Assembly: GCA_016844925.1 (NCBI GenBank) | Contig: JAERTI010000043.1 | Span: 66,642 to 130,641 of the forward strand | Source of the DNA: Candidatus Uhrbacteria bacterium | GTDB taxonomy: Bacteria; Patescibacteriota; Patescibacteriia; UBA9934; GWF2-40-263 | Length of the DNA stretch: 64,000 bases | Reading direction: 5' to 3' | Shown here: positions 10,120-36,214 of the stretch, piece after piece | Layout: the number at the start of each line of letters is the position of its first letter | Numbering within the stretch: the stretch's first letter is position 1 | Translations under genes and position numbers: made by a program | The notes under the pieces: generated by a model | What the model was told of the DNA's origin: nothing | Database searches by the model: none | What the model saw: only the letters and a program-made list of their open reading frames with translations

Positions 10120-10150
10120 CAACTTAAGTACGACGAAACATCATGGTGCT

Positions 10151-11230
10151 ATGGATACAATCCCCTGGTACAAGCGTGAGTATTTTCTGCTGCCCATCTT
10201 GCGAACAGATATCGTAACGATGGCAGAGAATTTTGCTGTCATGCTTGAGGCTGGGCTGATTGTGCCAGAGGCACTCGATACGCTTGCGGATCAGAGTACA
10301 GGCGCATTGAAAAGCGTACTTGTGCGAGTGCACACAAAGGTGTGTGCTGGTGAGACACTCACAGATGCGATTAAAAAAGAGAAACGTGTCTTTGATCCGG
10401 TCTTTGTGAGTTCCGTGCGTGTTGGTGAGACATCTGGAACGTTGGCAGAAAATCTTCGGCATGTGGCTGGACAGCTGGAGCGGGATTTAGAAATCCGTCG
10501 GAATGTTCAGGGGGCAATGCTCTATCCAAGTATCGTCATCATAACGACATTGAGCATCGGTCTTGCACTGGCAACATTCGTTCTTCCTCAGATGGCGGAT
10601 GTGTTTTCTTCATTGGGGACCGAGCTCCCTGTTTCAACACAGGTTGTGATCTGGCTTGCTGAGATGTTTAACCTGTACGGGTTTATCATCACACCAGGTT
10701 TTGTTTTATTGGTAGCGGGTTTATTCGTGTTAGCACGCAGTCGTTTCATGCAGCCCTTGGTGGATACGTTCACATTGAAGATTCCCGGGGTGAATACGTT
10801 TTTATACGACCTTAACCTCGCGCGCTTTTCTCGTTCCCTTGGGACCATGCTTAAAAGCGGTGTCCCAATCCAAGAAGCGTTGGAGATTACGAGTGTTGTG
10901 CTCTCAAATTACAGGTATCGTGATTCAGTGAAAACGATGCACCAGAAGATTGCTTCCGGCGAGAGCTTCTCTGAACTCGTAGCAGAATACCCGAGGCTGT
11001 ACCCCAAGATTATTCAGCGTATGATCGCCGTGGGAGAACGTTCTGGCGGCATGAGTGACACGTTGGAATACATGGCACGTCATTACGAGCAAAAGGTGGA
11101 GATCCGTGCCAAGAACCTCTCGACGATTGTCGAGCCAATCCTACTTCTTGTTATTGGTCTTGCTGTGGCGTTCCTGGCAATGGCAATCTTTACACCGATT
11201 TATTCGATTACGGAGGGATTGAGTCTATGA
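10151..11230 (+). CDS. pilC: type IV pilus inner-membrane platform protein (GspF/PilC family)
   Basis: two T2SS-F-like repeats, three TM segments, located after pilB; start could be 10085. Confidence 0.7.
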   Translation: MDTIPWYKREYFLLPILRTDIVTMAENFAVMLEAGLIVPEALDTLADQSTGALKSVLVRVHTKVCAGETLTDAIKKEKRVFDPVFVSSVRVGETSGTLAENLRHVAGQLERDLEIRRNVQGAMLYPSIVIITTLSIGLALATFVLPQMADVFSSLGTELPVSTQVVIWLAEMFNLYGFIITPGFVLLVAGLFVLARSRFMQPLVDTFTLKIPGVNTFLYDLNLARFSRSLGTMLKSGVPIQEALEITSVVLSNYRYRDSVKTMHQKIASGESFSELVAEYPRLYPKIIQRMIAVGERSGGMSDTLEYMARHYEQKVEIRAKNLSTIVEPILLLVIGLAVAFLAMAIFTPIYSITEGLSL

Positions 11231-11658
11231 ACAGGCGAGGGTTCACAGTCGTCGAGTTGATGATAGCCATAGCACTTCTCGGAATCCTTGTTGGGGCCGC
11301 TTTGGCAGCCTATTTACCGTTTCAGGAAAGGAATAAAGTCGACCTCGCCGTTCAGTCGAGTGTGCAAGAACTGAGGAGAGCTCAGATTCTTTCTCAGGCA
11401 GTTGATGGAGATGCGTCCTGGGGTGTTTCTGTGCAGGTGGGTACCATTACGCTTTTTCAGGGAGCGAGTTATGCTCTGCGAGATACGAGTCTCGATGAGG
11501 AGATAGCGATTGATGATTCGCTTACCCCCTCTGGATTGACAGAGGTGGTGTTTACAAAATTTACAGGTGTTCCACAGTCAACAGGCACACTTACTCTAAC
11601 GGGAACGTATGAGACAAGAGCCGTCACAATTAATGCCAGGGGAGTGCTCGACTACTAG
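11227..11658 (+). CDS. prepilin-type minor pilin/pseudopilin
   Basis: N-terminal MNRRG|FTVVELMIAIALLGIL class III signal peptide. Confidence 0.65.
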   Translation: MNRRGFTVVELMIAIALLGILVGAALAAYLPFQERNKVDLAVQSSVQELRRAQILSQAVDGDASWGVSVQVGTITLFQGASYALRDTSLDEEIAIDDSLTPSGLTEVVFTKFTGVPQSTGTLTLTGTYETRAVTINARGVLDY

Positions 11659-13045
11659 ATTAGGATTTTCTTTGATCGAGATCGTGCTCAGTATTGCTCT
11701 TTTTGGATTATTTTTTGTTGGTCTTGTGCCGGTGGTTATTGATGGACAGCAGTTTATTGCTGAGTCTGGTGCTCGTACGCGCGCTGTTTTTTTGGCAGAG
11801 GAAGGATTGGAGGCGGCAAAAAATATACGAGACGAGGGGTTCGTGAATTTGACTCTGGGCACACATGGGTTAGCAGATTCATCAAACACATGGGTTTTTT
11901 CTGGGAGTTCGGACACCGTTGATACCTATACGCGTTCTGTGACGGTCAGCCCCGTGGATTCAGATCGCAAAGACATTACTTCCACGGTGACATGGGACCA
12001 GACACCTGGGAGGGTTGGAAGTGTGAGTTTGGTGACACGTTTAACAAACTGGCAGGCCGGGACGGGGAAACCTATTCCAATTACACCAGGAGCAACGTTG
12101 GACCTTGGAGGTGTTGCCGATGGACAAGAGATTGGCCTTTATGTTGATGGGGGAACAACGTACGCTATTGTTGGCCGAAAGAAATCTTCGGATGAAGAGC
12201 TGTATATTATTGATGTATCAGACCCTACATCGCCATCAGTTGCCGCTTCTTTAGAAATTGGAAGCGATGTAAATGATATAGCTATCGTGGGGACAAATGC
12301 ATTCTTGGCGACATCCTCAAATACGGCAGAGCTCCAGGTTGTGAGTTTGCTTACACCAACAAGTCCATCAGTAACAGGAAGCCTTAATCTTGCAGGAACA
12401 CCCGATGCTGAGACGGTCGTTGCTGAAGGGAGTAATTTGTACCTAGGTCGAAGTGTTTATAGTGCTGGTCCAGAAATGTATTCGATCTCTATTGCCACAC
12501 CGACGTTACCAAGTGAACTCTCAAGTTTGGAGGTTGGTGACACGGTATGGAAGATAGTTTTGGCTCAGAGTAATACGTACGTTTATGCCGCCACTGGTAG
12601 TGATACGGCAGAAATGGCTGTTATAGACGTCTCGGCGCCGGGAAGCATTTCTCAAACAGCGGTTCTGGATGTTAGCGGACCGAGTGATGGAACAGCTATC
12701 CATGCGTTTTCCACATATGGATTACTTGGTACGGACGATGGGTATCTCCGTGTGGTTGATGTCTCAACACCATCTTCTCCGTCAGTGATCGGTACTGTAT
12801 TAAATGGAAACAAGATTAACGATATTGCTTTGGGGGTAGATAATGATTATGTCTTTTTGGGGAATAGTGCCGTTGGGGCTGAGGTAACCATTGTGAATAT
12901 TGTTGATCCAACAATACCGACCATTCATTACTCGATCGACCTTTCCGGAAACGAGGCTAAGGGCCTGATTTGGAGTGAGCCACTCAACGCCACGTTTGGA
13001 GTGGGTACCGGTAACACCGAAGAATTTTTTGCTATAACCCCATGA
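11633..13045 (+). CDS. large pilin-like protein with LVIVD-type beta-propeller repeats
   Basis: prepilin N-terminus G|FSLIEIVLSIALFG; repeated DVSDPTSPSV...G...A motifs resembling LVIVD repeats. Confidence 0.5.
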   Translation: MPGECSTTRLGFSLIEIVLSIALFGLFFVGLVPVVIDGQQFIAESGARTRAVFLAEEGLEAAKNIRDEGFVNLTLGTHGLADSSNTWVFSGSSDTVDTYTRSVTVSPVDSDRKDITSTVTWDQTPGRVGSVSLVTRLTNWQAGTGKPIPITPGATLDLGGVADGQEIGLYVDGGTTYAIVGRKKSSDEELYIIDVSDPTSPSVAASLEIGSDVNDIAIVGTNAFLATSSNTAELQVVSLLTPTSPSVTGSLNLAGTPDAETVVAEGSNLYLGRSVYSAGPEMYSISIATPTLPSELSSLEVGDTVWKIVLAQSNTYVYAATGSDTAEMAVIDVSAPGSISQTAVLDVSGPSDGTAIHAFSTYGLLGTDDGYLRVVDVSTPSSPSVIGTVLNGNKINDIALGVDNDYVFLGNSAVGAEVTIVNIVDPTIPTIHYSIDLSGNEAKGLIWSEPLNATFGVGTGNTEEFFAITP

Positions 13046-13563
13046 TGTTGAGACGTGCAGACAATCGAAGTGGTTTTACGCTGATAGAGCTCTCCATTTA
13101 TATTGGAGTTATGGGGTTCGTGCTGATTGCGCTTATCGGTTTCTTTCTGTTTCTCACTCAGCACAGAGTAAAGAATCAGGTTATTGTCGATGTCGAGCAG
13201 CAGGGGGCTCAAGCCATGCAACTTATATTGCAAACAATCCGTAATGCCGACGCGATTAACTCACCGGTTCCCGCGGCATCAGCCACCTCAACGTCCGTTG
13301 ATGTGTTCGATGTGGCAAACGACCCAACCATTTTTTCTCTTAGTGGAGGGGTGATTCAAATGACAGAGGCGGGTGGTTCGGCTGTTGATCTTACCTCCTC
13401 CAACGTGACGGCCTCAGAGCTTCGTTTCGAGAATGTTGCCCGGACTGGTACAGAAGATTTTTTAAAGGTTGAGTTTACCGTGACTCATCCAGAGGCGGGA
13501 GTTTCATCAGTTTATAATTACCAACGAACGTTCTACGGTTCGGCTGCAGTTCGAGAACCATGA
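13042..13563 (+). CDS. prepilin-type pseudopilin
   Basis: N-terminus NRSG|FTLIELSIYIGVMG. Confidence 0.6.
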   Translation: MMLRRADNRSGFTLIELSIYIGVMGFVLIALIGFFLFLTQHRVKNQVIVDVEQQGAQAMQLILQTIRNADAINSPVPAASATSTSVDVFDVANDPTIFSLSGGVIQMTEAGGSAVDLTSSNVTASELRFENVARTGTEDFLKVEFTVTHPEAGVSSVYNYQRTFYGSAAVREP

Positions 13564-13961
13564 TGTTGCCTAACGACAACAACGGCTTCATGTCATTACT
13601 AACCGTTCTCGTTGTAGGTGCGGTGGGGGTTTTGATTGTCACCACGTTTACTCTGCTTGCCATTGATGCATCCAGGTTGGGGTTTGCCTTAGAACAATCA
13701 TTTCAAGCAAAGGCCTTATCAAACGCCTGTACGGAGGAGGCGCTACAGCAAATAAGCGATTCTGTACCGTTTTCCGGCGCAGGAACCCTTTCCTTGGGGG
13801 AAGGGGATTGCGGATATAATGTGACGGCTTTGTCTGGGCAGAGCAGGACCTTAGATGCAACAGGAGTTGTTGATACAATGATCAGGAAGGTGGATGTAAG
13901 TCTTGATAGCATTACGCCGGACATAAATATCACCTCATGGCAGGAGGTAGCGGACTTTTAA
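13560..13961 (+). CDS. pilin-like/PilX-like protein
   Basis: N-terminal G|FMSLLTVLVVG hydrophobic segment, adjacent to pseudopilins. Confidence 0.4.
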   Translation: MMLPNDNNGFMSLLTVLVVGAVGVLIVTTFTLLAIDASRLGFALEQSFQAKALSNACTEEALQQISDSVPFSGAGTLSLGEGDCGYNVTALSGQSRTLDATGVVDTMIRKVDVSLDSITPDINITSWQEVADF

Positions 13962-13967
13962 AACGAT

Positions 13968-14954
13968 ATGACTATATTCAACGGAGTCGGTATTGATGTC
14001 TCAAACCATCACGTGCGCCTGGCTGAGGTGTCTTTGCTTGGGAACGTGCTACAGACGTATGAGATTGTGCTTGAAGAAGGATTGGTGCGTGACGAGCAGG
14101 TGGTGGATGTCGATGGGTTAGCAAAGGTTCTGAGACAAAAACTAAAAAAGACATCTTTTGCCCAAGGGGTACGGCGGACGACGCTTCTTGTTCCTGAATC
14201 TCGTGTTCTGTCCTCTGGGGGGCTTTTTGAAAAACGTTTGCGGGGCAGTGCGCTGGACGAGGTTGTAACAGAGCGGGCACAGCAAGATATTCCGCTCCCA
14301 TTTAAAGATGCGTATATTTCAATTTCTTGCGGAGGCAAAGAAGAAGGCAAGGTTCGAACAACGTTATATGCGTCACAAAAAGAAGTGATCGATAGTCTTA
14401 GGGGGATCGTTGATCCTGAGCAATTTCGACTCGTCGCCATGGAGGCAAATAGCAAGGCGCTGTTGCGCTTATTCTTGCAGTTTGCCTCAGGGGAGCTTCA
14501 GCCGTGTTCTGAAAACGAGCTCGTGGGGATCGTTGACGTGGGACATAGTTGGACAACGGTTTCGTTCTATACACCGTCTGGGTCAAATGTCTTATCTCGC
14601 ACGCTTTCACACCCAGAGGCCATTAAACGGGGTGAAGAAAATGACGGGAAGCTACCTATGGAGGTTCTGGATAACATTCGTACAACAATTGATGAATCCG
14701 TTGTATACTTTAAGCAACATGAACAAGTGGTTTCGACGGTTGTTTTAGCTGGCGTCGAAGCGCACGACGATATGGTTCTGGAGGTAATGGGGAGAAGTGA
14801 GGGAGACTTTCAGGTTGTGCGGATGGGGGAGGTGGTAGAGATTTCTGGATTAACTCCAAAAGACGTACATACATTTGGCGCCGCCATCGGCGCTGCATTA
14901 CGTGCAGTCCGGCCATGGCGTTACGGCTATCAACATAATTTCACTTCAAAGTAG
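13968..14954 (+). CDS. pilM: PilM-like actin-fold pilus assembly protein
   Basis: N-terminal GIDVS..VRLAEV actin-like motif, about 330 aa, pilus locus context. Confidence 0.5.
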   Translation: MTIFNGVGIDVSNHHVRLAEVSLLGNVLQTYEIVLEEGLVRDEQVVDVDGLAKVLRQKLKKTSFAQGVRRTTLLVPESRVLSSGGLFEKRLRGSALDEVVTERAQQDIPLPFKDAYISISCGGKEEGKVRTTLYASQKEVIDSLRGIVDPEQFRLVAMEANSKALLRLFLQFASGELQPCSENELVGIVDVGHSWTTVSFYTPSGSNVLSRTLSHPEAIKRGEENDGKLPMEVLDNIRTTIDESVVYFKQHEQVVSTVVLAGVEAHDDMVLEVMGRSEGDFQVVRMGEVVEISGLTPKDVHTFGAAIGAALRAVRPWRYGYQHNFTSK

Positions 14955-14955
14955 T

Positions 14956-15498
14956 ATGATTGAAAAACAAAGAGGCACTCAGCAAGGGTTCACGTTGGTT
15001 GAGCTCCTTGTCGTGATTGCGATCATTGGTGTATTGGTCGCGATTATTTTTGTGGCACTTGATCCGTCAACACGTTTCCAGCAGGCACGAGATGCTGTTC
15101 GACAGAATGATGTGCAAGAGATTCTTTCAGCCGTGAAGCTGGATCAGGTGGACAACAATGGAACGTATCTCACAGCTATTGCCGACGCAACGGCCACGGA
15201 GGTAACGATGATTGTAAATGGGGCAACCATGACTTCTGGCTGTGATGATAATAACAGCGCCTGTGATACGAACGTCACAGGTGATACGAGTTGTGTAAAC
15301 CTCGCTGGACTAGTAAGCGAAGGGTATCTTCATGAGATTCCAGTGAGTCCTACAGGAAGTGTCACTTGGGATGATGGAAGTGGTGCTACTGACGAAGGAA
15401 CTGGTTACACGCTTTCGCGTTCAGCTACGGGCATCATTACGATTCGCGCATGTGAGTCAGAGTACAGTGGTAACTCAGAGATTGATGCTGCACGGTAG
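14956..15498 (+). CDS. type IV major pilin (PilA-like)
   Basis: G|FTLVELLVVIAIIGVL N-terminus, C-terminal Cys pair. Confidence 0.7.
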   Translation: MIEKQRGTQQGFTLVELLVVIAIIGVLVAIIFVALDPSTRFQQARDAVRQNDVQEILSAVKLDQVDNNGTYLTAIADATATEVTMIVNGATMTSGCDDNNSACDTNVTGDTSCVNLAGLVSEGYLHEIPVSPTGSVTWDDGSGATDEGTGYTLSRSATGIITIRACESEYSGNSEIDAAR

Positions 15499-15503
15499 TT
15501 TTT

Positions 15504-16037
15504 ATGGGATCTACGTCACGGCAAACAAAAGGATTTACTCTAGTGGAGCTTTTGATCGTTGTTGCAATTATTGGGATCCTTGTGGCGGTTGTTCTTGTGG
15601 CTCTTAACCCTGCACAGCGGTTTCAGCAGGCACGTGACGGCGTGAGGCAAAATGATGTGCAGGCAATTCTCTCGTCAATTAGATTGCATGAGGTGGATAA
15701 CGGTGAGCTGCTATCTGATATCGCGAACTTAACCGATGCGGATGTGTATATGGCGGTTGATGGGATTGGTATGAATAACGGTTGTGATGACAATAACGAT
15801 TACTGTTCAACAAACGTTTCTCTCGATACACACTGTGTCGACATCTCGGATCTTCTTGATGATGGGTATTTAGCAGAGATGCCTGTTAGTCCGGCGGGAG
15901 ATGTGACGTGGGATCGAGGTGAGCAAGATGGAAGAGAGGGGTCTGGTTATACAATATCGATCAGTCATGATGATATTGTGACGGTCAGGGCCTGTGAGAA
16001 TGAGGCCACAACAACAGAGATCGAAGTTTCCGGGTAA
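15504..16037 (+). CDS. type IV pilin, tandem paralog
   Basis: G|FTLVELLIVVAIIGIL N-terminus; conserved FQQARDxVRQNDVQ with the upstream pilin. Confidence 0.7.
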   Translation: MGSTSRQTKGFTLVELLIVVAIIGILVAVVLVALNPAQRFQQARDGVRQNDVQAILSSIRLHEVDNGELLSDIANLTDADVYMAVDGIGMNNGCDDNNDYCSTNVSLDTHCVDISDLLDDGYLAEMPVSPAGDVTWDRGEQDGREGSGYTISISHDDIVTVRACENEATTTEIEVSG

Positions 16038-16134: not shown

Positions 16135-16211
16135 GGGCATGTAGCTCAGCTGGTTAGAGCGCATCCCTGATAAGGATGAGGTCGGAGGTTCGAGTCCTCC
16201 CATGCCCACCA
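16135..16211 (+). tRNA. tRNA-Ile(GAT), CCA encoded
   Basis: cloverleaf with anticodon loop cTGATAa; acceptor gggcatg/catgccc. Confidence 0.85.
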
Positions 16212-16217
16212 GAAGGC

Positions 16218-16292
16218 GCCGAGGTAGCTCAGGGGTAGAGCAGTGGACTGAAAATCCACGTGTCGTGAGTTCAAATCTCACCCTCGGCACCA
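16218..16292 (+). tRNA. tRNA-Phe(GAA), CCA encoded
   Basis: acceptor gccgagg/cctcggc, anticodon loop cTGAAAa. Confidence 0.85.
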
Positions 16293-16341: not shown

Positions 16342-16370
16342 TTGACACGGCCCTGGGGGTCAGACACAAT
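16342..16370 (+). promoter_or_regulatory. candidate sigma70 promoter of thr leader
   Basis: TTGACA -35, 17-nt spacer, CACAAT -10-like, about 10 nt upstream of leader ATG. Confidence 0.35.
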
Positions 16371-16379
16371 AGGATTGTT

Positions 16380-16433
16380 ATGCACTTGAGCATCACCACA
16401 ACCACGACTACTACGACGACCCTTGGTCGTTGA
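16380..16433 (+). CDS. thrL: thr operon leader peptide (MHLSITTTTTTTTTLGR)
   Basis: AGGA RBS, 17-codon ORF with 9 consecutive Thr codons plus Ile, immediately upstream of thrA. Confidence 0.7.
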   Translation: MHLSITTTTTTTTTLGR

Positions 16434-16464
16434 GGTTCGTGTTGTTGGGAGGATTTAAAGACAA

Positions 16465-16495
16465 CCGCGGCCCTCAATGGGGTCCGTTTTATTTC
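16465..16495 (+). terminator. attenuator terminator
   Basis: cggccc..gggtccg hairpin followed by ttttatttct directly before thrA ATG. Confidence 0.4.
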
Positions 16496-16496
16496 T

Positions 16497-18929
16497 ATGA
16501 AAATATTGAAGTTTGGAGGGTCATCTGTTGCATCGGCAGAAAGGATTCGGTCGGTGGTGAACATTATTCGATCTCAGGATGATGAGAGTCTTGTTGTTGT
16601 CTGTTCTGCCCTTGGCGGAGTTACGGATAAGTTGATTGAAGCGAGTGGGCTGGCGGCGGCGGGCGACGATGCCTACCTTCGGGTCTTCGATGAGCTTTCT
16701 TCGCGTCACTTGGGGTGTGTGAACGAGCTTTTGGCTGGGCCTGAGCTTGAGGGGGCCAGGAAGCATCTTCAGGAACAGCTCGAGTCACTGGAAGAGGTCT
16801 TGCGCGGCATTTACTTGATTCAAGAATGCACTCTTCGTTCAAAAGATCTGGTGATGAGCTTTGGTGAGCGTCTGTCGAATTTTCTTGTATGTGAGCATCT
16901 TAAGCAGTTTGTCCCGGATGCTGTCATGCTCGATGCACGTCACGTAGTCAAGACGGACGACCAGTTTGGAAATGCGCGGGTTAGGATGAGTGAGAGTTTC
17001 CAAAATATTCGTAACCACTCCAATGGCTATGCACGGATCCGAGTGGTCACAGGGTTCATTGCTTCTACAGAGAAAGGGGAGACCACGACACTTGGTCGTG
17101 GAGGCTCAGATTACACAGCCTCTCTTTTTGGAGCCGCGCTTGGGGCAGAAGAGATTCAGATTTGGACGGATGTCGACGGGGTTCTCTCGGCCGACCCTCG
17201 AGTCGTGTCAGATGCTCAGCCCGTCTCCCACATGAGTTACGAGGAGGCCATGGAGATGTCACATTTTGGAGCAAAGGTGATTTACCCACCAACCATGCAA
17301 CCGGCATTAGATGCTGGTATTCCAATTCGGATCAAGAACACCTTTAACCCTCAGGTGGAAGGAACCCTTATCGGTGCACAGCAATCAGGGGGTGTTAATC
17401 AACCTGTGACAGGAATATCGTCGATTAAGGAAATAGCATTTATTCGCGTGCATGGCTCTGGGCTTGTGGGGGTTACTGGAACGGCTGGTCGGATGTTCTC
17501 TGCGCTCGCTCGGGCCGGAATCAACATCATCATGATTACACAGGGCTCTAGTGAACATTCGATTTGTTTTGCTGTAGGGCCGGGAGATGCGGAACGTTCC
17601 GTAGCAGCCATCAAGGAGGAATTTGCGCTGCAGATTCTCCAGAGGCAGATTGAAGAGATCTTAGTCGAGAAGGATTTGTCGATCGTGGCGGTGATTGGAG
17701 AGCGCATGCGGCAGACGCCGGGGATTAGCGGGAGACTGTTTGGGGCACTTGGTGACGCCGGGGTGAATGTGATTGCTATTGCCCAAGGTTCAAGTGAGCG
17801 AAATATCTCTATTGTGGTGAAGAAAGATCAGGTGGCAGGGGCTATGCAAGCCATTCATCAGGATTTCTTCGGTGATTCTAGGGGGGGAAAAACTCAGAAA
17901 TCTGACGCTCGCATATATCTTGTCGGAACGGGGCTTATCGGTTCAACATTGTTGAACCAGATCGCTTCACTTGCCAAGTCGACAGTGAGGGTTCATGGCT
18001 TAGCTGATTCACGGAATATGATGGTTTCTGATCGAGCGATCAATCCAGAGATGTGGAAGCAGGCTCTTGAGGCTGGTGAGCCAAGTAGCCTTGATTCGTT
18101 TATTGAACAGATGCTAGCTCATGACGGAGGTGTGAAGATATTTGTCGACTGTACGGCAAGTGAGGTGATCGCCAAGCGGTATCCAGAGATTCTTGCTGCA
18201 GGAGCGAAGATCGTGACACCAAATAAAAAAGCGGCGTCTGGTCCTCAAGAGGACTTCGACAAGATTGCTGATGCCCTTATGAGGGGTGACATGCGCCACG
18301 AGACAAATGTCGGCGCGGGGCTTCCGGTAATGTCAACGATTCGGTCGCTCAGAGAGACGGGGGATGAGATTCTTGAGATAAGCGGTGTGTTTTCAGGGAC
18401 ACTGTCGTATCTGTTCAATACATATGACGGGCACTCCTCATTTGCTGAGCTTGTTTCTCAGGCTCGTGAGAAGGGTTTCACGGAGCCAGATCCTCGTGAT
18501 GATCTTTCTGGCATGGATGTGGCACGTAAGCTTGTCGTGCTCGCGCGCGAGCTTGGTATGCGAGTGGAGTTGTCGGATGTAGAGGTGGAGAATCTAACGC
18601 CAGAGCCTTGTCGATCAATTGAGTCGATAGATGAATTCCTTGAGCGCCTTGAAGATTACGATGATGAGTTTGCGCAGAGAGCCCTGTCGGCTCAGGAGGG
18701 TGGAAAACGACTCCGGTACGTTGGATCAATTAAGGGAGGGGAGTTGTCGGTACAACTTAAAGCGGTTGGACCAGCGGCTTCTACGTACGGTCTATCAGGC
18801 TCTGACAACCTTGTCGCGATTCGGACGCGTCGTTATCATGATCGACCGCTCGTTATCCAGGGGCCAGGCGCTGGGGCGGAGGTGACGGCCGCTGGTGTAC
18901 TCACAGATATTCTTTCACTCACAACATAA
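16497..18929 (+). CDS. thrA: bifunctional aspartokinase/homoserine dehydrogenase
   Basis: N-terminal KFGGSSV aspartokinase, ACT region, C-terminal homoserine DH domain, 810 aa. Confidence 0.9.
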   Translation: MKILKFGGSSVASAERIRSVVNIIRSQDDESLVVVCSALGGVTDKLIEASGLAAAGDDAYLRVFDELSSRHLGCVNELLAGPELEGARKHLQEQLESLEEVLRGIYLIQECTLRSKDLVMSFGERLSNFLVCEHLKQFVPDAVMLDARHVVKTDDQFGNARVRMSESFQNIRNHSNGYARIRVVTGFIASTEKGETTTLGRGGSDYTASLFGAALGAEEIQIWTDVDGVLSADPRVVSDAQPVSHMSYEEAMEMSHFGAKVIYPPTMQPALDAGIPIRIKNTFNPQVEGTLIGAQQSGGVNQPVTGISSIKEIAFIRVHGSGLVGVTGTAGRMFSALARAGINIIMITQGSSEHSICFAVGPGDAERSVAAIKEEFALQILQRQIEEILVEKDLSIVAVIGERMRQTPGISGRLFGALGDAGVNVIAIAQGSSERNISIVVKKDQVAGAMQAIHQDFFGDSRGGKTQKSDARIYLVGTGLIGSTLLNQIASLAKSTVRVHGLADSRNMMVSDRAINPEMWKQALEAGEPSSLDSFIEQMLAHDGGVKIFVDCTASEVIAKRYPEILAAGAKIVTPNKKAASGPQEDFDKIADALMRGDMRHETNVGAGLPVMSTIRSLRETGDEILEISGVFSGTLSYLFNTYDGHSSFAELVSQAREKGFTEPDPRDDLSGMDVARKLVVLARELGMRVELSDVEVENLTPEPCRSIESIDEFLERLEDYDDEFAQRALSAQEGGKRLRYVGSIKGGELSVQLKAVGPAASTYGLSGSDNLVAIRTRRYHDRPLVIQGPGAGAEVTAAGVLTDILSLTT

Positions 18930-18933
18930 TCCT

Positions 18934-19974
18934 ATGGACAAAAAAATCCCTGTCGCCATTTTGGGCGCGACCGGCAGTGTCGGTCAGAAGTTTATCGAAC
19001 TGTTAAAAGATCATCCATGGTTTGAGATTGCAGCGCTCTGTGCATCTGAGCGCTCAGCTGGAAAGCCCTATCACGAGGCGGCCAACTGGTTTCAAGCCAG
19101 TGAGTTACCAAAACATATTGGAGAAATGATCGTTCAGCCGTGTGAACCATCTGTCCCGGGACGAATTGTGTTTTCTGGCTTGGACTCCAGTGTTGCTGGA
19201 GAGATAGAACAGGCCATGGCTAAGGCGGGGAAGATTGTCGTCTCAAACTCGAAGAACCATCGGATGCACGATGATGTCCCGCTCCTGGTTCCGGAGATCA
19301 ATGCTGATCACTTAGCGCTTCTTAAGAAGCAGGCTTTTGGTGACGGTATGATTGTGACTAACCCAAACTGCTCGACCATTGGGCTTGTTCTAGCTCTGAA
19401 GCCCCTTGTAGATGCGTTTGGTGTGCGTGAGGTGTCTGTTGTGACAATGCAAGCGCTCTCAGGTGCTGGGTATCCTGGGGTGGCTTCTCTCGACATCATT
19501 GATAATGCTGTTCCATATATCGGTGGGGAAGAGGATAAGATTGAAACAGAGCCCTTAAAGATTTTCGGGGATTTAATTAATGATCATGTAGAGCCAGCTG
19601 TAATGAACATCTCCGCAAGTTGCAATCGAATTGCCGTTGTGGATGGGCATATGGAGTGTGTGAGTGTGCGACTTGGTAGACAAGCGAGTGCAAAGGAGAT
19701 TATTGAGGCTTGGGAAGATTATCGTGCGGAGCCTCAGGAGATGGGATTGCCAACAGCACCAGGGCGACCTGTGCACTACCATCGTGAAGAGCATTATCCT
19801 CAACCACGTAAACATCGCATGCTCGATAAGGGGATGGCAGTATCTATTGGGCGTTTGCGTGAGTGTTCCATTCTAGAATGGAAGTTCACTTTGCTTTCAC
19901 ACAATACAATTCGAGGTGCGGCTGGTGGAGCGCTCTTAAACGCAGAGCTCATGGTCGAGATGGGACTTGTATGA
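18934..19974 (+). CDS. asd: aspartate-semialdehyde dehydrogenase
   Basis: ILGATGSVGQ NAD motif, NPNCSTI active-site Cys region. Confidence 0.9.
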   Translation: MDKKIPVAILGATGSVGQKFIELLKDHPWFEIAALCASERSAGKPYHEAANWFQASELPKHIGEMIVQPCEPSVPGRIVFSGLDSSVAGEIEQAMAKAGKIVVSNSKNHRMHDDVPLLVPEINADHLALLKKQAFGDGMIVTNPNCSTIGLVLALKPLVDAFGVREVSVVTMQALSGAGYPGVASLDIIDNAVPYIGGEEDKIETEPLKIFGDLINDHVEPAVMNISASCNRIAVVDGHMECVSVRLGRQASAKEIIEAWEDYRAEPQEMGLPTAPGRPVHYHREEHYPQPRKHRMLDKGMAVSIGRLRECSILEWKFTLLSHNTIRGAAGGALLNAELMVEMGLV

Positions 19975-20591
19975 TCATCTCACTGATAGGGATGAGTAAT
20001 TGTGGGAAATCGCATTGGTCAAAGAAACTTGAGGACGAGCGGGGGTATGAGCGTCGGTGTTGTGATGATTTGATTGCTGGGCAATTGAATGATCTGTTGC
20101 CTGAAGTTGATATTACTGACATGGATGCGTTTGCTGCCTGGATGGGGATGCCGCATGAGTTCGGCTATGCTGAGCGAGAGGGGGCGTACTTGGCCGGGGA
20201 AGAGGGGGCCCTGTTGGAGGCGGTGAAGGTGTCTCAGGGGGATGTAGTGATCGATACGACAGGAAGTGTCATCTACTTATCCGAGAATCGACTACGCCAC
20301 CTAAAGCAGATTTCGACAGTGGTTTATCTGTCGACGACAGACGACCAAGTCGCGTCAATGACAGAAAAGTTTTTTGCGTGCCCAAAGCCCCTTGTGTGGG
20401 GAGAGTGTTTTGACCAACGTTCGGTAGAATCGAATGAACAGGCGCTAAGAAGGTGCTATCCAGATTTATTACGATGGCGACGGGAGCGATATAAAACCCT
20501 TGCGGACGTCACGATTCCTTATGAGCGTTCTCATGACCCCAGCTATTCAGTCGACAAATTTCTTTATGATGTACTACAGCACAAACGATAA
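19971..20591 (+). CDS. P-loop kinase of shikimate-kinase-like fold; candidate alternative homoserine kinase
   Basis: IISLIGMSNCGKSH Walker A near N-terminus; ATGA overlap with asd stop; sits between asd and thrC. Confidence 0.5.
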   Translation: MIISLIGMSNCGKSHWSKKLEDERGYERRCCDDLIAGQLNDLLPEVDITDMDAFAAWMGMPHEFGYAEREGAYLAGEEGALLEAVKVSQGDVVIDTTGSVIYLSENRLRHLKQISTVVYLSTTDDQVASMTEKFFACPKPLVWGECFDQRSVESNEQALRRCYPDLLRWRRERYKTLADVTIPYERSHDPSYSVDKFLYDVLQHKR

Positions 20592-21843
20592 GTTTCACAG
20601 GGTCGACGCACGTCAGGCGGTGCTTGCAGGTCTTGCTCCAGACGGTGGGCTCTACATGCCCGAGTCGATTCCCAGATTGCCGCAACGATTCTTTGATGAG
20701 CTGAGAGGAAAGTCTTTGCAAGAGATAGGCTATATCGTCTCCAGCATTTTCTTGGGAGATGTTGTTCCAAGTGACAAGCTTCATGAGATTGTTGCCGGCA
20801 CGTTAGATTTTGAAATACCCCTAAGGCAGGTCGGGGAGGCTCAAGTCCTCGAGCTCTTTCACGGACCAACGCTCGCCTTTAAAGATGTGGGTGCCAGATT
20901 CATGGCTCGTCTCATGAGTTATTTTGTTGAGGAGGACGATCGTGAGCTTACAATCCTTGTTGCGACATCAGGAGATACAGGTTCTGCCGTGGCTCACGGA
21001 TTTCACAATGTTCCAGGGATTAAGGTTGTGGTGCTTTATCCAAGTGGGAAGGTGAGCGATCTGCAAGAGAAGCAGATGACAACCCTTGGAGGCAATATTA
21101 CGGCTCTTGAGGTGGATGGGGTGTTTGATGATTGCCAACGACTCGTGAAGAAGGCATTCGTCGATTCAGAGCTTTCACAGGCCCTCCGACTTTCTAGTGC
21201 GAACTCGATCAACATCGCCCGGCTGATCCCGCAGAGCTTTTATTACTTCTGGGCCATGGCGCAGTTACCCAAGGGGGAGCCACAGGTAATTACAGTTCCG
21301 TCTGGTAACTTTGGGAACCTCACTGCTGGTCTGATGGCAAAGCGTATGGGACTTCCAGTGGATAGGTTTATTGCTGCAACAAATGAGAACGATGTCGTAC
21401 CTGAATACCTCATCACGGAGCAATTCAATCCACGCCCATCTGTTGCAACGATCTCTAATGCTATGGACGTCGGCAATCCATCGAACTTCGTTCGCATGCT
21501 CGAGTTATACGATCGCAACGCTCAGAAGATGCGTGAGGACGTGGTGGGAATCAAGGTGAGTGAGAAGCAGACACGCGAGACAATCGCACGTGTTCATCGT
21601 GAGTATGGTTATGTGCTCGATCCGCACGGAGCTGTTGCCTACAACGCCTGCGAGCGATCTGTGAAACGAGGGGTGGTGATTGAGACTGCACATCCAGCAA
21701 AGTTTAAGGATGTGGTGGAGGAGGAGACGGGTGAACCTGTTGAGATTCCCGACAGTCTAGCTAAGTGCATGGAGAAGGAGAAGAAGAGTCAGAGAATTTC
21801 ATCTGACTTCACAGAGTTAAAACAGTTCCTACTTACTCGATAA
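20566..21843 (+). CDS. thrC: threonine synthase
   Basis: PLP-binding AFKD lysine motif, about 425 aa. Confidence 0.9.
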   Translation: MMYYSTNDKFHRVDARQAVLAGLAPDGGLYMPESIPRLPQRFFDELRGKSLQEIGYIVSSIFLGDVVPSDKLHEIVAGTLDFEIPLRQVGEAQVLELFHGPTLAFKDVGARFMARLMSYFVEEDDRELTILVATSGDTGSAVAHGFHNVPGIKVVVLYPSGKVSDLQEKQMTTLGGNITALEVDGVFDDCQRLVKKAFVDSELSQALRLSSANSINIARLIPQSFYYFWAMAQLPKGEPQVITVPSGNFGNLTAGLMAKRMGLPVDRFIAATNENDVVPEYLITEQFNPRPSVATISNAMDVGNPSNFVRMLELYDRNAQKMREDVVGIKVSEKQTRETIARVHREYGYVLDPHGAVAYNACERSVKRGVVIETAHPAKFKDVVEEETGEPVEIPDSLAKCMEKEKKSQRISSDFTELKQFLLTR

Positions 21844-21860
21844 CTAACGATAAGTAATAA

Positions 21861-21897
21861 CAAAAACACCTGCCATCGGGCAGGTGTTTTGAACTGA
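21861..21897 (+). terminator. rho-independent terminator after thrC
   Basis: acacctgcc atcg ggcaggtgt hairpin followed by TTTT. Confidence 0.6.
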
Positions 21898-22029: not shown

Positions 22030-23525
<1,496 letters not shown>

Positions 23526-23530
23526 ATATA

Positions 23531-26045: not shown

Positions 26046-27315
26046 TTCCCTCGGCAGTCACACACGTCTATTGCTGATTGTGGCGGCAGTCTTGCTTGTG
26101 GTGGTGGCTGTGATGGGTACGCTCCTCTACAGAAGCTCGACACAAGTTCTTGATGAGCTTCCTTATGTAATAGATCAAGAACAAGAAGTTTTTCAGGGTC
26201 GTGAGAGTGAGGAGCGGCAGCCACGTGAGGAGCAACTCACTGCTAAAGAGCAGTGCTCTTACTCTTTAGACTGGCAACCCACAAACTTTCGTCAGTCGAT
26301 TGACCAGTTACCTTACAATGTCACGGACATGCTCGTTGCAGAGGATGGAACAGTCTACGCAGCGTATAATGATGACAACAATGCGACATTTGTTGCGGGG
26401 ACGAAGGATGGTGGCTCAAGCTGGGAAGTGAGTAGTCTCCCTGATGCAGTAGTGACGATCCGAGTATTGCGTGAGATGCAAGACGGGCGTTTCCTTCTCG
26501 GGGCAACGGGGCGTGCACAGACAGCGGTCCTTTATGAGAGTCACGACGGCCTCACGTGGGAGGAGCTTGCTCAAGATGCAGGTAATGGAATTGTTCTTCC
26601 AAATGAGACATCGACAAGTGTTTGGGATATCGTGGAGCTTCCTGGTGGAGAGGTACTCATTGTTACAGATTCAAGAGACAACAATCCTGATCGAGAGAAC
26701 ATGACGCTTTACCTCTTGGAAGGGGATCGGCTTTCAGAACTCGCATCGTTCCCTGGCCTTGGGCTCTTGGCTGCGGCAGTAAATGATGAGGGACTCATCG
26801 TTGTGGCAACGGAAGAGAGCGATGAGCATGATGATCCTGAGCTTGCAGGCCAGGCGCGGATCTTCATCTCGGCAGATAACGGAGTGACGTGGGATGAAGG
26901 TGGTATCCCTCAGGGGGCGAATCGTATCTATGACCTTCACTTTCACTCTTCCGGTGTGCTCTATGCGGGAACCGGCATTAACGGCGAGCTTCTGTATTCA
27001 AGTGATAATGGTTTGACCTGGAGGGCGGCGACGCATGTACCAGAGATAGAATTGCCGTTTGGCGACGAGGGAGGGATGCGTGTTGTTGAGGTGAGTCGTG
27101 TGTATCAAATCTTAGAACTCTGTGATGGCTCAATGCTTGTTGGCACAGGAAATAACGGCGGGGCTATCTTCTACACCGATGACGCTGGAAAGACTTGGCA
27201 GGAGACTGAGGATACCGGACCGAATAATGTTGTCTGGGGACTCGCCCAGGAAGAAGATGGCACGATCTGGATCGGAACCGGGTCTCGTGGGGGTGACGTG
27301 CTGACAACAAAATAA
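26008..27315 (+). CDS. membrane-anchored BNR/Asp-box repeat beta-propeller protein
   Basis: N-terminal TM, then at least 5 SxDxGxTW Asp-box repeats; start may be alternative. Confidence 0.55.
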   Translation: MTGGLNNQNETTSSLGSHTRLLLIVAAVLLVVVAVMGTLLYRSSTQVLDELPYVIDQEQEVFQGRESEERQPREEQLTAKEQCSYSLDWQPTNFRQSIDQLPYNVTDMLVAEDGTVYAAYNDDNNATFVAGTKDGGSSWEVSSLPDAVVTIRVLREMQDGRFLLGATGRAQTAVLYESHDGLTWEELAQDAGNGIVLPNETSTSVWDIVELPGGEVLIVTDSRDNNPDRENMTLYLLEGDRLSELASFPGLGLLAAAVNDEGLIVVATEESDEHDDPELAGQARIFISADNGVTWDEGGIPQGANRIYDLHFHSSGVLYAGTGINGELLYSSDNGLTWRAATHVPEIELPFGDEGGMRVVEVSRVYQILELCDGSMLVGTGNNGGAIFYTDDAGKTWQETEDTGPNNVVWGLAQEEDGTIWIGTGSRGGDVLTTK

Positions 27316-27330
27316 AAACCCCGATGAACA
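27304..27330. terminator. bidirectional hairpin terminator at GC boundary
   Basis: ccccgatg..catcgggg palindrome with A/T runs on both sides. Confidence 0.5.
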
Positions 27331-27376
27331 TCGGGGGAGAGCGACTCGCTGCGTGCGGGTCGCTTTTCTGTTTGAG

Positions 27377-28774
27377 CTACTCGAGCTCGCCGAACCACTC
27401 GTTGTGGAGCTGGTCGAAGCGACCGTCGCCCATCATGGTCAGCAGAGCCACGTTGGCACTCTCGCGCAGGGGGCTGTCCGGCGGGAAGAGCATGCCGTAG
27501 CGCTCGGTGGTGAAGGGCTCGCCCGTCACCACGACCTCGCCGGAGCCTTCGCCCCTGGCGTGGTGGATGAGGACCGGCTCGTCGAAGACGACTGCTTCGA
27601 CGCCGCCACCCTTGAGCAGGTCGAAGCCCTGGTCGATTCGGGAGACGGCGGTGACCTTGGCACCGGCCTTGCGAGCGGCGACCTCACTGGTTGTGCCAGC
27701 CTCGACGGCGACGTGAACGCCAGCGAGGTCCGCAGCGGTGTTCATGTGGGCCGTGTTCGCCTCGTCGATCCTGATCTCGGCGATGACGCCCACGACCAGA
27801 CCGACGAAGATGAAGCCGACGTACATCATCAGCGAGGTGAGGATGCGGGCCGGCCACGAGCGGGCCGTGTAGTGACCGTAGCCCACCGTGGTGGAGGTTA
27901 CGTTCATGAAGTAGACCGACTGGGGGAAGCCCTTCCAGAACTCGTAGGCGATCTCGCCAGGCTCGCGTTCCTTCTTGGGGTAGAAGAACCGCTCGCAGAC
28001 CCAGACCAGGAACCCGGCGAAGCACAGGAACGTGGCGTAGGAGAGGAAGACCTTGATCAGGTCCCAGTTGGTGAGGATGTTCCAGAACCCCTTGAGCATC
28101 GAGGTCTCTTCGCTGATGACCATGATGGCCAGGCCGCTGTCGTAGTACGGCAGGGAGAAGTCGACGCGCTCTTCGCGCTCACCGGTGATGGTGATGCCGG
28201 CGATGCCGACGTCTGCCTCGCCCTCAGCGACGGTGTCGATGAGGGTGGGGACGCTCTCGACGGCGATGGGCTCGTAGTCGCAGCCCATCTCCTCGGCGAT
28301 CATGTCCCAGAGCTCGATGTCGAAGCCGGTGAGCTCACCGCGCTCGTACATCACCATGGGCTCGAGCTCGTGCACCACCAGGGTGACGGGCTCGTCCACG
28401 GGGCAGGGGTCCTGCTTGTGCTCGATGACCTCGAACTCGACTTCCTCGAGCTCCACATCCGGCTCGGTGGCCGGTGGGTCCTCGGTGGCAGGGAGCTCGC
28501 CCGTCTCTCCGATGAGGGGCTCTTCTGTCGGCTCGGTCTCGTCTTCCGAGGGAAGGAGCTCTTCCTCGCCTTCTTCGTCGATCAGCTCGGGCACCACGGG
28601 TGCCGGCTCGGGATCGTCGTCCTGGGCCCACGCATCGGTCAGCGCGGGGGACAAGAGCAGGCCAAGGAGCACGAGCCCCACGGCGATGGTCTTCTGGCGG
28701 GGGCTGAGATGTCGCACGTGTACCTCCGTTTCAAGTGCAGTCAGAACAAACGCGGACGAGCGACCGTACGTCAT
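27377..28774 (-). CDS. GluR0-like ligand-gated potassium channel (SBP lobe, M1-P-M2 pore, SBP lobe)
   Basis: K+ selectivity filter TVGYG flanked by two TM helices, inserted between two halves of a periplasmic substrate-binding domain; signal peptide. Confidence 0.7.
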   Translation of the reverse strand: MTYGRSSAFVLTALETEVHVRHLSPRQKTIAVGLVLLGLLLSPALTDAWAQDDDPEPAPVVPELIDEEGEEELLPSEDETEPTEEPLIGETGELPATEDPPATEPDVELEEVEFEVIEHKQDPCPVDEPVTLVVHELEPMVMYERGELTGFDIELWDMIAEEMGCDYEPIAVESVPTLIDTVAEGEADVGIAGITITGEREERVDFSLPYYDSGLAIMVISEETSMLKGFWNILTNWDLIKVFLSYATFLCFAGFLVWVCERFFYPKKEREPGEIAYEFWKGFPQSVYFMNVTSTTVGYGHYTARSWPARILTSLMMYVGFIFVGLVVGVIAEIRIDEANTAHMNTAADLAGVHVAVEAGTTSEVAARKAGAKVTAVSRIDQGFDLLKGGGVEAVVFDEPVLIHHARGEGSGEVVVTGEPFTTERYGMLFPPDSPLRESANVALLTMMGDGRFDQLHNEWFGELE

Positions 28775-33671: not shown

Positions 33672-33732
33672 CTGATGTTTCACCTCAGTTGTAAGGGACG
33701 CAAACAGCACAAAAATTTGGCCATTTGACGCG

Positions 33733-33800
33733 ACAGAGTAGAATTTTTTGCCAGTTTTGTCAATGGATAAAAAGAAAAACCCGCCTGTGTTGGCGGGGAG
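33733..33800 (-). promoter_or_regulatory. terminator+promoter module (minus strand)
   Basis: hairpin cccgcc/ggcggg with T-run, then TTGACA, 17-nt spacer, TACTCT. Confidence 0.45.
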
Positions 33801-33801
33801 C

Positions 33802-36008: not shown

Positions 36009-36214
36009 AGAAAAGACGCCTGGTATCGGAGGAAGTAGAAAACGACGGGGCCAGCGTGAAAATAAAATCAGACGCCGGGGCGTCGTATTCAGTCTTCCTT
36101 TGCATCTTTCCCTTGCGGGATGGAGTTCGCACCTTATCGATTACTCGACAGGTTGCGGGCAGGTCATAGGGCCAATTCCCTCACTGCTCTCTGAATACGT
36201 TTCTTCAGTTGTTG

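What the first reader, a model, noticed from the sequence alone, without database searches (positions are those of the whole stretch)
19971..20591. P-loop (shikimate-kinase-like) kinase embedded in the thr operon where thrB is expected
Between asd and thrC there is no GHMP-family homoserine kinase. Instead a 206-aa protein with N-terminal Walker A (LIGMSNCGKSH) is translationally coupled on both sides: ATGA overlap with asd and a 25-nt overlap with thrC.

This makes it a candidate non-orthologous homoserine kinase, or a regulatory kinase of the pathway.
Basis: inference. Interest (0 to 1): 0.6.

Follow-up and report, generated by a model that had tools for sequence, protein, structure and literature searches.

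The report
Shikimate-kinase-fold homoserine kinase in thr operon
The small P-loop kinase sitting where thrB should be is very probably the homoserine kinase of this threonine operon, a member of a large, mis-annotated family that is only distantly related to the one proven shikimate-kinase-like homoserine kinase (Desulfovibrio).

Summary
ORF 19971-20591 (+) encodes 206 aa with Walker A GMSNCGKS. Its ATG overlaps the asd stop (ATGA), and its end overlaps thrC by 26 or 23 nt. No other homoserine-kinase type was found in the window.

- In 32 of 80 loci from many phyla, the gene lies within 400 nt of thrC, hom, asd or the aspartokinase gene.
- It is fused to ThrA at either end in several proteins.
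- In some loci it follows thrS or a Thr-rich leader peptide.
- In the window, the operon is preceded by a leader peptide with nine consecutive Thr codons and a classical attenuator.
- All 120 family representatives tested match NCBIfam NF040667 (Desulfovibrio homoserine kinase), but far below its cutoff (window protein 40 vs 197 bits).

Verdict: a non-orthologous homoserine kinase (confidence about 0.85, comparative evidence only). It is a new variant of a known kind. Its main value is for metabolic reconstruction of CPR, DPANN and anaerobe genomes.

The parts
16342..16370 (+). sigma-70-like promoter of the thr operon (TTGACA-17-CACAAT)
   Evidence: Consensus scan, 10 of 12 matches. Only a pattern match. 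Its position, 10 nt upstream of the leader ORF, fits a promoter.
16380..16433 (+). leader peptide MHLSITTTTTTTTTLGR (Ile plus nine consecutive Thr codons)
   Evidence: Read from the sequence and from the ORF search. Similar Thr-rich leaders precede thr genes in L006, L025, L068 and L019.
16429..16494 (+). attenuator: mutually exclusive antiterminator and intrinsic terminator (stem 16469-16484 plus CGTTTTATTT) just before the thrA ATG
   Evidence: Terminator scan; MFE fold -39.4 kcal/mol, z -2.3. Constrained folds give an antiterminator (-18 to -22 kcal/mol) when the Thr codons are masked, and the terminator otherwise. The Rfam Thr_leader match is only 17.9 bits, E 0.35.
16497..18929 (+). thrA: fused aspartokinase (with ACT domains) and homoserine dehydrogenase, 810 aa
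   Evidence: NF006959 963 bits; Pfam AA_kinase, ACT_9, NAD_binding_3, Homoserine_dh.
18934..19974 (+). asd: aspartate-semialdehyde dehydrogenase, 346 aa
   Evidence: TIGR00978 450 bits, NF006416 479 bits. ATG 18934 lies 5 nt after the thrA stop.
19971..20591 (+). the finding: 206-aa P-loop kinase of shikimate-kinase fold, proposed ATP:L-homoserine O-phosphotransferase
20566..21843 (+). thrC: threonine synthase, 425 aa, overlapping the kinase by 26 nt
   Evidence: TIGR00260 306 bits; Thr_synth_N, PALP, THR4_C.
21863..21890 (.). 12-bp hairpin flanked by A and T runs; likely bidirectional terminator ending the operon
   Evidence: Terminator scan. It lies 20 nt after the thrC stop and before the convergent 16S rRNA gene.

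Best explanation
The ORF most likely encodes the homoserine kinase (EC 2.7.1.39) of a self-contained aspartate-to-threonine operon: leader-attenuator, thrA (aspartokinase + homoserine dehydrogenase), asd, kinase, thrC.

It is a P-loop NMP-kinase-type enzyme of shikimate-kinase fold and replaces the GHMP-type ThrB.

Proposed mechanism (inferred by analogy with shikimate kinase):
- Walker A K13 and S14 bind ATP-Mg.
- D32, equivalent to shikimate kinase Asp34, positions and activates the gamma-hydroxyl of L-homoserine.
- The lid motif P-K/R-P-x-x-W (138-143) closes over the phosphates.
- The invariant R170, equivalent to shikimate kinase Arg136, binds the substrate carboxylate.
- The family-specific invariant acids E77 and D95 are candidates for binding the alpha-ammonium group.

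The product, O-phospho-L-homoserine, is used by ThrC, whose gene overlaps the kinase gene. Expression of the whole operon is set by threonyl-tRNA (and isoleucyl-tRNA) supply through a leader-peptide attenuator.

Shown here: the fold, conservation, gene context, fusions and attenuator architecture. Inferred: the substrate and the residue roles.
For: 1. **Pathway logic.** The operon encodes four of the five Asp-to-Thr activities, and the only unassigned gene is a kinase in the thrB slot.
2. **Context.** In 32 of 80 loci the gene lies within 400 nt of thrC, hom, asd or the aspartokinase gene, often with 0 to 4-nt overlaps. The loci come from Patescibacteria lineages, Acidobacteriota, Dormiibacterota, Bdellovibrionales and MAGs labelled as archaeal. 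The closest relative (71% identity) has the same operon.
3. **Fusions.** AK-ACT-HSDH-kinase occurs in L036 and L078 (two different sequences, no intervening stop), P0145 (1031 aa) and P0144. The opposite order, kinase-AK-ACT-HSDH, occurs in P0254 (1055 aa).
4. **Threonine-specific regulation.** The window has a nine-Thr-codon leader with alternative antiterminator and terminator structures. Thr-rich leaders also occur before the aspartokinase gene in L006 and L025, and directly before the kinase in L068. thrS lies next to kinase-thrC in Roizmanbacteria loci.
5. **Similarity to the proven enzyme.** NF040667, the Desulfovibrio homoserine kinase, is the best curated-family hit for the window protein (E 3e-10, against 3e-5 for AroL). 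It is hit by all 120 family representatives, whereas only 36-44 hit AroK or AroL models. DvMF_0971 was shown genetically to be a homoserine kinase and complements E. coli thrB- (PMC5764234).
7. **One family.** Operon-linked and unlinked members share the same invariant residues.
Against: - There is no biochemical or genetic test of any member of this family.
- The score against the curated Desulfovibrio homoserine-kinase model is far below its cutoff (40 vs 197 bits) and covers only residues 2-128.
- In 48 of 80 loci (mostly Desulfobacterota, Chloroflexi and Woesearchaeota) the gene is not within 400 nt of any threonine gene, and its neighbours there are unrelated genes such as a heptosyltransferase or an oxidoreductase.
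- Whether these genomes lack other homoserine kinases, or have a separate shikimate kinase, could not be tested.
- The DvMF_0971 sequence could not be retrieved for direct comparison.
Confidence: 0.85

Rival explanations
1. It is a genuine (or bifunctional) shikimate kinase that merely happens to sit in the threonine operon.
Against: - The Pfam SKI score is below the gathering threshold (20.5 vs 22.1), and AroK and AroL equivalog scores are far below their cutoffs.
- The Arg58 equivalent is not conserved and the GGG motif is changed.
- No aro genes were seen in the window ORFs scanned or among the recurrent neighbour families examined in the related loci (aro queries were not run). Instead the neighbours are thr genes, there are ThrA fusions, and Thr leaders precede the genes.
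Confidence: 0.06
2. It phosphorylates another pathway-related small molecule (for example L-threonine or L-serine) or a protein such as ThrA, acting as a regulator rather than a biosynthetic step.
For: Fusion to and adjacency with ThrA and thrS would also be compatible with a regulatory role.
Against: - The operon would then lack the obligatory homoserine kinase step although it keeps thrC.
- The protein is a compact single-domain enzyme with a small-molecule pocket derived from shikimate kinase.
- No cobalamin genes or other threonine-phosphate-consuming genes were seen nearby.
Confidence: 0.05
3. Only the operon-linked subgroup is a homoserine kinase. The unlinked members in Desulfobacterota, Chloroflexi and Woesearchaeota have a different substrate.
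For: 48 of 80 loci show no threonine gene within 400 nt of the kinase, with heterogeneous neighbours.
Against: The same invariant residues occur in both groups. Identity between the groups (39%) is about the same as within them (41-43%). Threonine genes are commonly dispersed in larger genomes (general knowledge). This rival does not affect the window gene itself.
Confidence: 0.1

Closest known systems
Desulfovibrio shikimate-kinase-like homoserine kinase (DvMF_0971; NCBIfam NF040667 hom_kin_desulfo)
   Same: Both are P-loop proteins related to shikimate kinase that replace ThrB. NF040667 is the top curated-family hit for the window protein and is matched by all 120 family representatives tested. 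Its function is proven by threonine-rescued mutants and complementation of E. coli thrB- (PMC5764234).
   Different: - The window protein scores 40 bits against a cutoff of 197, and only residues 2-128 align, to model positions 2-106 of 163.
- The window protein is longer (206 aa). Relative to E. coli AroK it has insertions after residue 42 and around 72-78, and a longer lid carrying PKPxxW.
- This family is often operon-embedded or fused to ThrA.
- Direct sequence comparison with DvMF_0971 was not possible.
Shikimate kinase AroK/AroL (Pfam PF01202, EC 2.7.1.71)
   Different: The Arg58 equivalent is not conserved and GGG has become T-G-S. Family-specific invariants are W57, P61, E77 and Y174. 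Scores are below the Pfam and NCBIfam thresholds. The genomic context is threonine, not aromatic, biosynthesis.
GHMP-family homoserine kinase ThrB (E. coli thrB, TIGR00191)
   Same: Same proposed reaction and the same operon slot between the homoserine-forming genes and thrC. Translational coupling is similar to that in E. coli thrABC (for the E. coli layout).
   Different: The fold is unrelated. There is no GHMP domain, and E. coli ThrB gives no tblastn hit in the window or the 80 loci.
Other non-GHMP homoserine kinases: APH-fold 'Neisseria-type' ThrB (TIGR00938), ThrH (HAD family) and the putative TIGR02535/BT2402 ThrB2 (phosphoglycerate-mutase-like)
   Same: All are non-orthologous displacements of the same step. 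ThrB2 likewise sits in thr operons (PMC9026213; PMC7311316).
   Different: These have different folds, and none of their models is hit by the window protein. The existence of TIGR00938 and ThrH is cited from my own knowledge.
E. coli thr operon leader thrL and its attenuator (Rfam RF00506)
   Same: A short leader peptide rich in Thr and Ile codons, followed by alternative hairpins and an intrinsic terminator in front of thrA.
   Different: The sequence is not recognisably homologous (17.9 bits, E 0.35, gathering score 55). The leader has nine uninterrupted Thr codons.

Membership tests
Desulfovibrio-type homoserine kinase (NCBIfam NF040667) | Whole-protein score at or above the curated cutoff (197 bits) | tested here: not met
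   40.1 bits, E 3.3e-10, residues 2-128 only. The best E-value among the 120 family representatives is 3.7e-15.
Desulfovibrio-type homoserine kinase (NCBIfam NF040667) | Closer to this model than to shikimate kinase models | tested here: met
   NF040667 is the top hit for the window protein (AroL E 3e-5, AroK E 0.012). It is hit by 120 of 120 representatives, against 36-44 for the AroK and AroL models.
Desulfovibrio-type homoserine kinase (NCBIfam NF040667) | Homoserine kinase activity (rescue of thrB-, threonine auxotrophy of mutants) | not testable with these tools
   Shown only for DvMF_0971 (PMC5764234).
Shikimate kinase (PF01202 / AroK, AroL equivalogs) | Shikimate-kinase fold | tested here: met
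Shikimate kinase (PF01202 / AroK, AroL equivalogs) | Score above the Pfam gathering threshold or the NCBIfam cutoffs | tested here: not met
   SKI 20.5 vs 22.1 bits; AroL 23.8 vs 161; AroK 15.5 vs 195.
Shikimate kinase (PF01202 / AroK, AroL equivalogs) | Shikimate-binding residues: Asp34, Arg58, the GGG loop and Arg136 (M. tuberculosis numbering, from my own knowledge) | tested here: not met
   D32 and R170 are conserved. The Arg58 column is variable (A/Q/K/E/P/T, or R in only 48% at the neighbouring position), and GGG has become T-G-S.
Shikimate kinase (PF01202 / AroK, AroL equivalogs) | Association with aromatic amino-acid (aro) genes | tested here: not met
   No aro genes were seen in the window ORFs scanned or among the neighbour families examined in the related loci (no aro queries were run). 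Threonine genes are found instead.
GHMP homoserine kinase ThrB | GHMP kinase domains (PF00288 / TIGR00191) | tested here: not met
   No GHMP hit. E. coli ThrB tblastn finds nothing.
APH-fold ThrB (TIGR00938), ThrH (HAD) and ThrB2 (TIGR02535) | Match to the respective models or domains | tested here: not met
   None appears among the Pfam or NCBIfam hits of the window protein at E<=0.1.
Leader-peptide transcription attenuator (thrL type) | Short ORF enriched in regulatory codons, alternative antiterminator and terminator hairpins, a U-tract, and position just upstream of the first biosynthetic gene | tested here: met
   The Rfam RF00506 sequence/structure model is not met (17.9 vs 55 bits).

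The most novel reading that the evidence does not exclude
This is a distinct, so far undescribed family of homoserine kinases. It is widespread (at least 438 50%-identity clusters) in Patescibacteria, DPANN-type archaea, Desulfobacterota, Chloroflexi, Acidobacteriota and Nitrospirota. It would be the main solution to the 'missing thrB' gap in these lineages, either recruited from the shikimate-kinase fold independently of the Desulfovibrio enzyme or ancestral to it. In some lineages it is fused with ThrA into a trifunctional aspartokinase / homoserine dehydrogenase / homoserine kinase.
Probability: 0.55. Interest if true: 0.55.

Novelty: new variant of a known kind. Interest (0 to 1): 0.45.

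Why it matters
Homoserine kinase is one of the steps most often scored as missing in automated amino-acid pathway reconstruction. It was low-confidence in 29 of 148 prototrophs in GapMind, and only 15 of those carry the TIGR02535 candidate (PMC7311316).

This family is currently named "shikimate kinase" or "hypothetical protein". That naming falsely suggests threonine auxotrophy and a partial shikimate pathway in CPR bacteria, DPANN archaea and many anaerobes.

Recognising the family would have three uses:
- it would correct those reconstructions;
- it would give a clear case of substrate switching within the shikimate-kinase fold, with testable specificity residues (loss of Arg58, gain of E77, W57 and Y174);
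- it would show that a reduced-genome Patescibacteria-like organism keeps a complete, attenuator-regulated threonine pathway.

Tried and rejected
- **DvMF_0971 / NF040667 sequence.** I could not obtain a sequence for direct alignment or phylogeny. tblastn of the window protein against plasmids found nothing, and the only paper mentioning the locus is Price 2018.
- **Literature.** Searches for this family found no description beyond the Desulfovibrio and BT2402 cases. The terms covered CPR, Peribacteria, novel, alternative or missing homoserine kinase, and ThrB3. GapMind supplements gave no relevant organism list.
- **A false lead.** An apparent second shikimate-kinase-like hit in L004 is only the P-loop of a Lon protease.
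- **Rfam.** No leader family reached the gathering score. Thr_leader appears only at E 0.35, so the attenuator call rests on its anatomy, not on homology.
- **N-terminal extensions.** Extensions of several 280-390-aa homologues have no Pfam domain and may be mis-called starts. I did not count them as fusions.
- **Not possible.** Whole-genome presence or absence of other thrB types or of aroK could not be checked with these tools.

Full report
**1. Observation**

The ORF at 19971-20591 (+) is real and as described. It has 206 codons and begins MIISLIGMSNCGKSH. Its ATG overlaps the asd stop codon (gtATGAtc). The thrC start is ATG 20566 or 20569, so the overlap is 26 or 23 nt rather than exactly 25.

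The flanking genes are securely identified:
- thrA (16497-18929), fused aspartokinase/homoserine dehydrogenase: NF006959, 963 bits.
- asd (18934-19974): TIGR00978, 450 bits.
- thrC (20566-21843): TIGR00260, 306 bits.

The ORF has no GHMP domain. Its only Pfam hits are sub-threshold: SKI at 20.5 bits against a gathering score of 22.1, and AAA_33. E. coli ThrB finds nothing by tblastn in the window or in 80 related loci. None of the window ORFs of at least 200 aa that I scanned against Pfam (about 35) carries a GHMP, APH, HAD or phosphoglycerate-mutase-type kinase domain.

**2. What the protein is**

It belongs to a large, well-conserved family.
- 1318 proteins match at E<=1e-3 in the 90%-identity clusters. 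Sources name them "shikimate kinase" or "hypothetical protein", never homoserine kinase.
- A profile search of 1.84 billion 50%-identity representatives gives 438 clusters at E<=1e-30 and 689 at E<=1e-10.
- An AlphaFold2 model built on a 24-sequence alignment is confident (mean pLDDT 92.3, pTM 0.87).
- Profile comparison with E. coli AroK gives 98% probability.

Among curated NCBIfam models the best hit is not a shikimate kinase. It is NF040667, "hom_kin_desulfo", the model for the Desulfovibrio homoserine kinase (40.1 bits, E 3.3e-10), ahead of AroL (E 3e-5) and AroK (E 0.012). All 120 diverse family representatives hit NF040667 (best E 3.7e-15), while only 36-44 hit any AroK or AroL model. 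None comes near the curated cutoff of 197 bits, so the family is related to that model but is not a member of it.

**3. Active site**

The following was measured across 120 representatives, using the hhalign alignment to AroK. Residue roles in shikimate kinase are from my own knowledge of the M. tuberculosis and E. coli enzymes.

*Retained from shikimate kinase:*
- Walker A G12 and K13 (100%), with S or T at 14.
- D32 (97.5%), the equivalent of the catalytic, substrate-hydroxyl-binding Asp34.
- A lid motif P138-K/R139-P140-x-x-W143, corresponding to R-P-L-L.
- R170 (100%), the equivalent of the carboxylate-binding Arg136.

*Changed:*
- The column aligned to the shikimate-carboxylate Arg58 is variable.
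- The GGG loop has become T-G-S (G98 and S99 at 100%).
- New invariant residues appear: W57, P61, E77 and Y174 at 100%, D95 at 99%, W143 at 97%.

This pattern indicates an active small-molecule kinase whose substrate pocket has been rebuilt. It does not look like a pseudo-kinase or a typical shikimate kinase. My suggestion that E77 or D95 binds the alpha-ammonium group of homoserine is inference only.

**4. Genomic context elsewhere**

A scan of one genome per species found 572 encoded relatives, and 80 loci were fetched. They come from:
- many Patescibacteria lineages (Uhr-, Peri-, Peregrini-, Roizman- and Levyibacteria, Microgenomates, Gracilibacteria);
- Syntrophobacteraceae, Desulfobacteraceae, Anaerolineae and other Chloroflexi;
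- Acidobacteriota, Nitrospiria, Dormiibacterota and Bdellovibrionales;
- Woesearchaeota and other MAGs labelled as archaeal.

In 32 of the 80 loci the kinase lies within 400 nt of thrC, hom, asd or the aspartokinase gene. All but two are on the same strand, typically in the order AK-HSDH-(ASD)-kinase-ThrC with 0 to 4-nt overlaps. The closest relative (71% identity, annotated Parcubacteria group) has the identical operon.

The other 48 loci are mostly Desulfobacterota, Chloroflexi and Woesearchaeota. They have unrelated, heterogeneous neighbours such as a heptosyltransferase, an FAD/NAD oxidoreductase, an ACT protein or a racemase. Their kinases nevertheless carry the same invariant residues. 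Identity between linked and unlinked members (39%) is about the same as identity within each group (41-43%).

**5. Fusions**

In two different Peribacteria MAGs (L036, L078) a single reading frame encodes aspartokinase, ACT, homoserine dehydrogenase, a linker of about 25 residues, and the kinase, with no stop codon between them. The representative library holds the same architecture in P0145 (1031 aa) and in the N-terminally truncated P0144. It also holds the opposite order, kinase-aspartokinase-ACT-homoserine dehydrogenase, in P0254 (1055 aa). Two independent fusion orders with the enzyme that makes homoserine are strong evidence that the kinase acts in this pathway.

**6. Regulation**

Upstream of thrA the window carries, in order:
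- a promoter-like TTGACA-17-CACAAT (16342-16370);
- a 17-codon ORF, MHLSITTTTTTTTTLGR (16380-16433);
- a terminator-like hairpin with a T-tract (16469-16494) ending 3 nt before the thrA ATG.

The free RNA pairs the Thr-codon segment with the following segment and forms the terminator. If the Thr codons are masked, as they would be by a stalled ribosome, the following segment instead pairs with the 5' arm of the terminator (-18 to -22 kcal/mol). If masking extends past the leader stop codon, the terminator forms again. This is the classical leader-peptide attenuator logic. By sequence it is not recognisably the enterobacterial Thr leader (RF00506: 17.9 bits, E 0.35).

Thr-rich leader ORFs also occur in four related loci: before the aspartokinase gene in L006 and L025, directly before the kinase in L068, and before thrS in L019. 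In Roizmanbacteria loci, threonyl-tRNA synthetase sits immediately upstream of kinase-thrC.

**7. Interpretation**

The operon supplies aspartokinase, aspartate-semialdehyde dehydrogenase, homoserine dehydrogenase and threonine synthase. Only homoserine kinase is missing, and the only unassigned gene is a kinase in exactly that position. That gene is co-regulated by threonine codons, translationally coupled on both sides, and elsewhere fused to ThrA.

There is an experimental precedent. DvMF_0971 of Desulfovibrio vulgaris Miyazaki F was annotated as a shikimate kinase, but its mutants are rescued by threonine and it complements E. coli thrB- (Price et al. 2018, PMC5764234).

I therefore conclude, with about 0.85 confidence, that the window gene encodes a homoserine kinase of shikimate-kinase fold.

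**8. Rivals**

| Rival reading | Confidence | Main evidence against |
|---|---|---|
| True or bifunctional shikimate kinase | 0.06 | Arg58 equivalent lost; scores below shikimate-kinase thresholds; threonine-specific context |
| Regulatory kinase, or a kinase for another substrate | 0.05 | Would leave the pathway without its obligatory kinase step |
| Only the operon-linked subgroup is a homoserine kinase | 0.10 | Does not affect the window gene; both groups share the same invariant residues |

**9. Novelty**

Shikimate-kinase-like homoserine kinases are known (Desulfovibrio; NCBIfam NF040667). Non-orthologous displacement of ThrB is a recognised theme (ThrB2/TIGR02535: PMC9026213, PMC7311316).

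This family fails the NF040667 cutoff by a wide margin. It has its own motifs, insertions and fusion architectures, and it is not named as a homoserine kinase by any source seen. I found no description of it in the searchable literature.

I rate it a new variant of a known kind. It is useful rather than startling, because it would close many "missing thrB" gaps and remove spurious shikimate-kinase calls in CPR, DPANN and anaerobe genomes.

**10. Limits**

- No experiment was done on any member of the family.
- Whole-genome co-occurrence with other homoserine kinases or with aroK could not be computed.
- The DvMF_0971 sequence was not obtainable, so it is undecided whether this family and the Desulfovibrio enzyme share one recruitment event.

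Noticed in passing
window 16342-16496: A classical threonine attenuator precedes thrA. It consists of a promoter-like site, a leader peptide MHLSITTTTTTTTTLGR (nine consecutive Thr codons), and alternative antiterminator and terminator hairpins. It is not recognised by Rfam at the gathering score (Thr_leader 17.9 bits).
   Followed up: yes
L036:1-2757, L078:3475-6618; proteins P0144, P0145, P0254: Trifunctional fusions exist in two orders: aspartokinase-ACT-homoserine dehydrogenase-kinase (Peribacteria MAGs) and the reverse, kinase-aspartokinase-ACT-homoserine dehydrogenase.
   Followed up: yes
L030, L050, L056 (thrS directly upstream of kinase-thrC); L019:7985-8062; L068:1282-1347; L006:430-513; L025:2110-2202: Threonyl-tRNA synthetase is adjacent to kinase-thrC in Roizmanbacteria. 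Thr-rich leader ORFs lie before thrS, before the kinase, or before the aspartokinase gene in other lineages.
   Followed up: partly
window 22031-23527 (-): A full-length 16S rRNA gene lies convergent with thrC and shares the hairpin at 21863-21890. No 23S or 5S rRNA gene occurs anywhere in the 64-kb window, so the rRNA genes appear unlinked.
   Followed up: no
window about 27000-28000, and 28000-64000: G+C content jumps from about 0.48 (1-26 kb) to about 0.58-0.64 (28-64 kb). Of the roughly 17 ORFs scanned in the high-GC part, most have no Pfam hit. This could be a genomic island or an assembly chimera.
   Followed up: no
window 36099-36201 (-), with downstream genes 35106-36008, 34310-35086, 33117-34097, 31244-32128 and 29584-31122 (all -): A SAM riboswitch (55.5 bits, above the gathering score) precedes genes with no Pfam match. 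These are followed by DUF2617, DUF350 and a 511-aa spermidine-synthase-domain protein. This would be an unusual regulon for a SAM riboswitch.
   Followed up: partly
window 27377-28771 (-): A prokaryotic glutamate-receptor-like channel: a solute-binding domain (SBP_bac_3, Lig_chan-Glu_bd) fused to a potassium-channel-type pore (Ion_trans_2).
   Followed up: no
window 8428-16037 (+): A type IV pilus cluster: a PilB-like ATPase, a PilC-like T2SSF protein, PilM, and two tandem pilin-like genes with the N-terminal motif GFTLVELL. It ends just before tRNA-Ile and tRNA-Phe (16135-16292).
   Followed up: no
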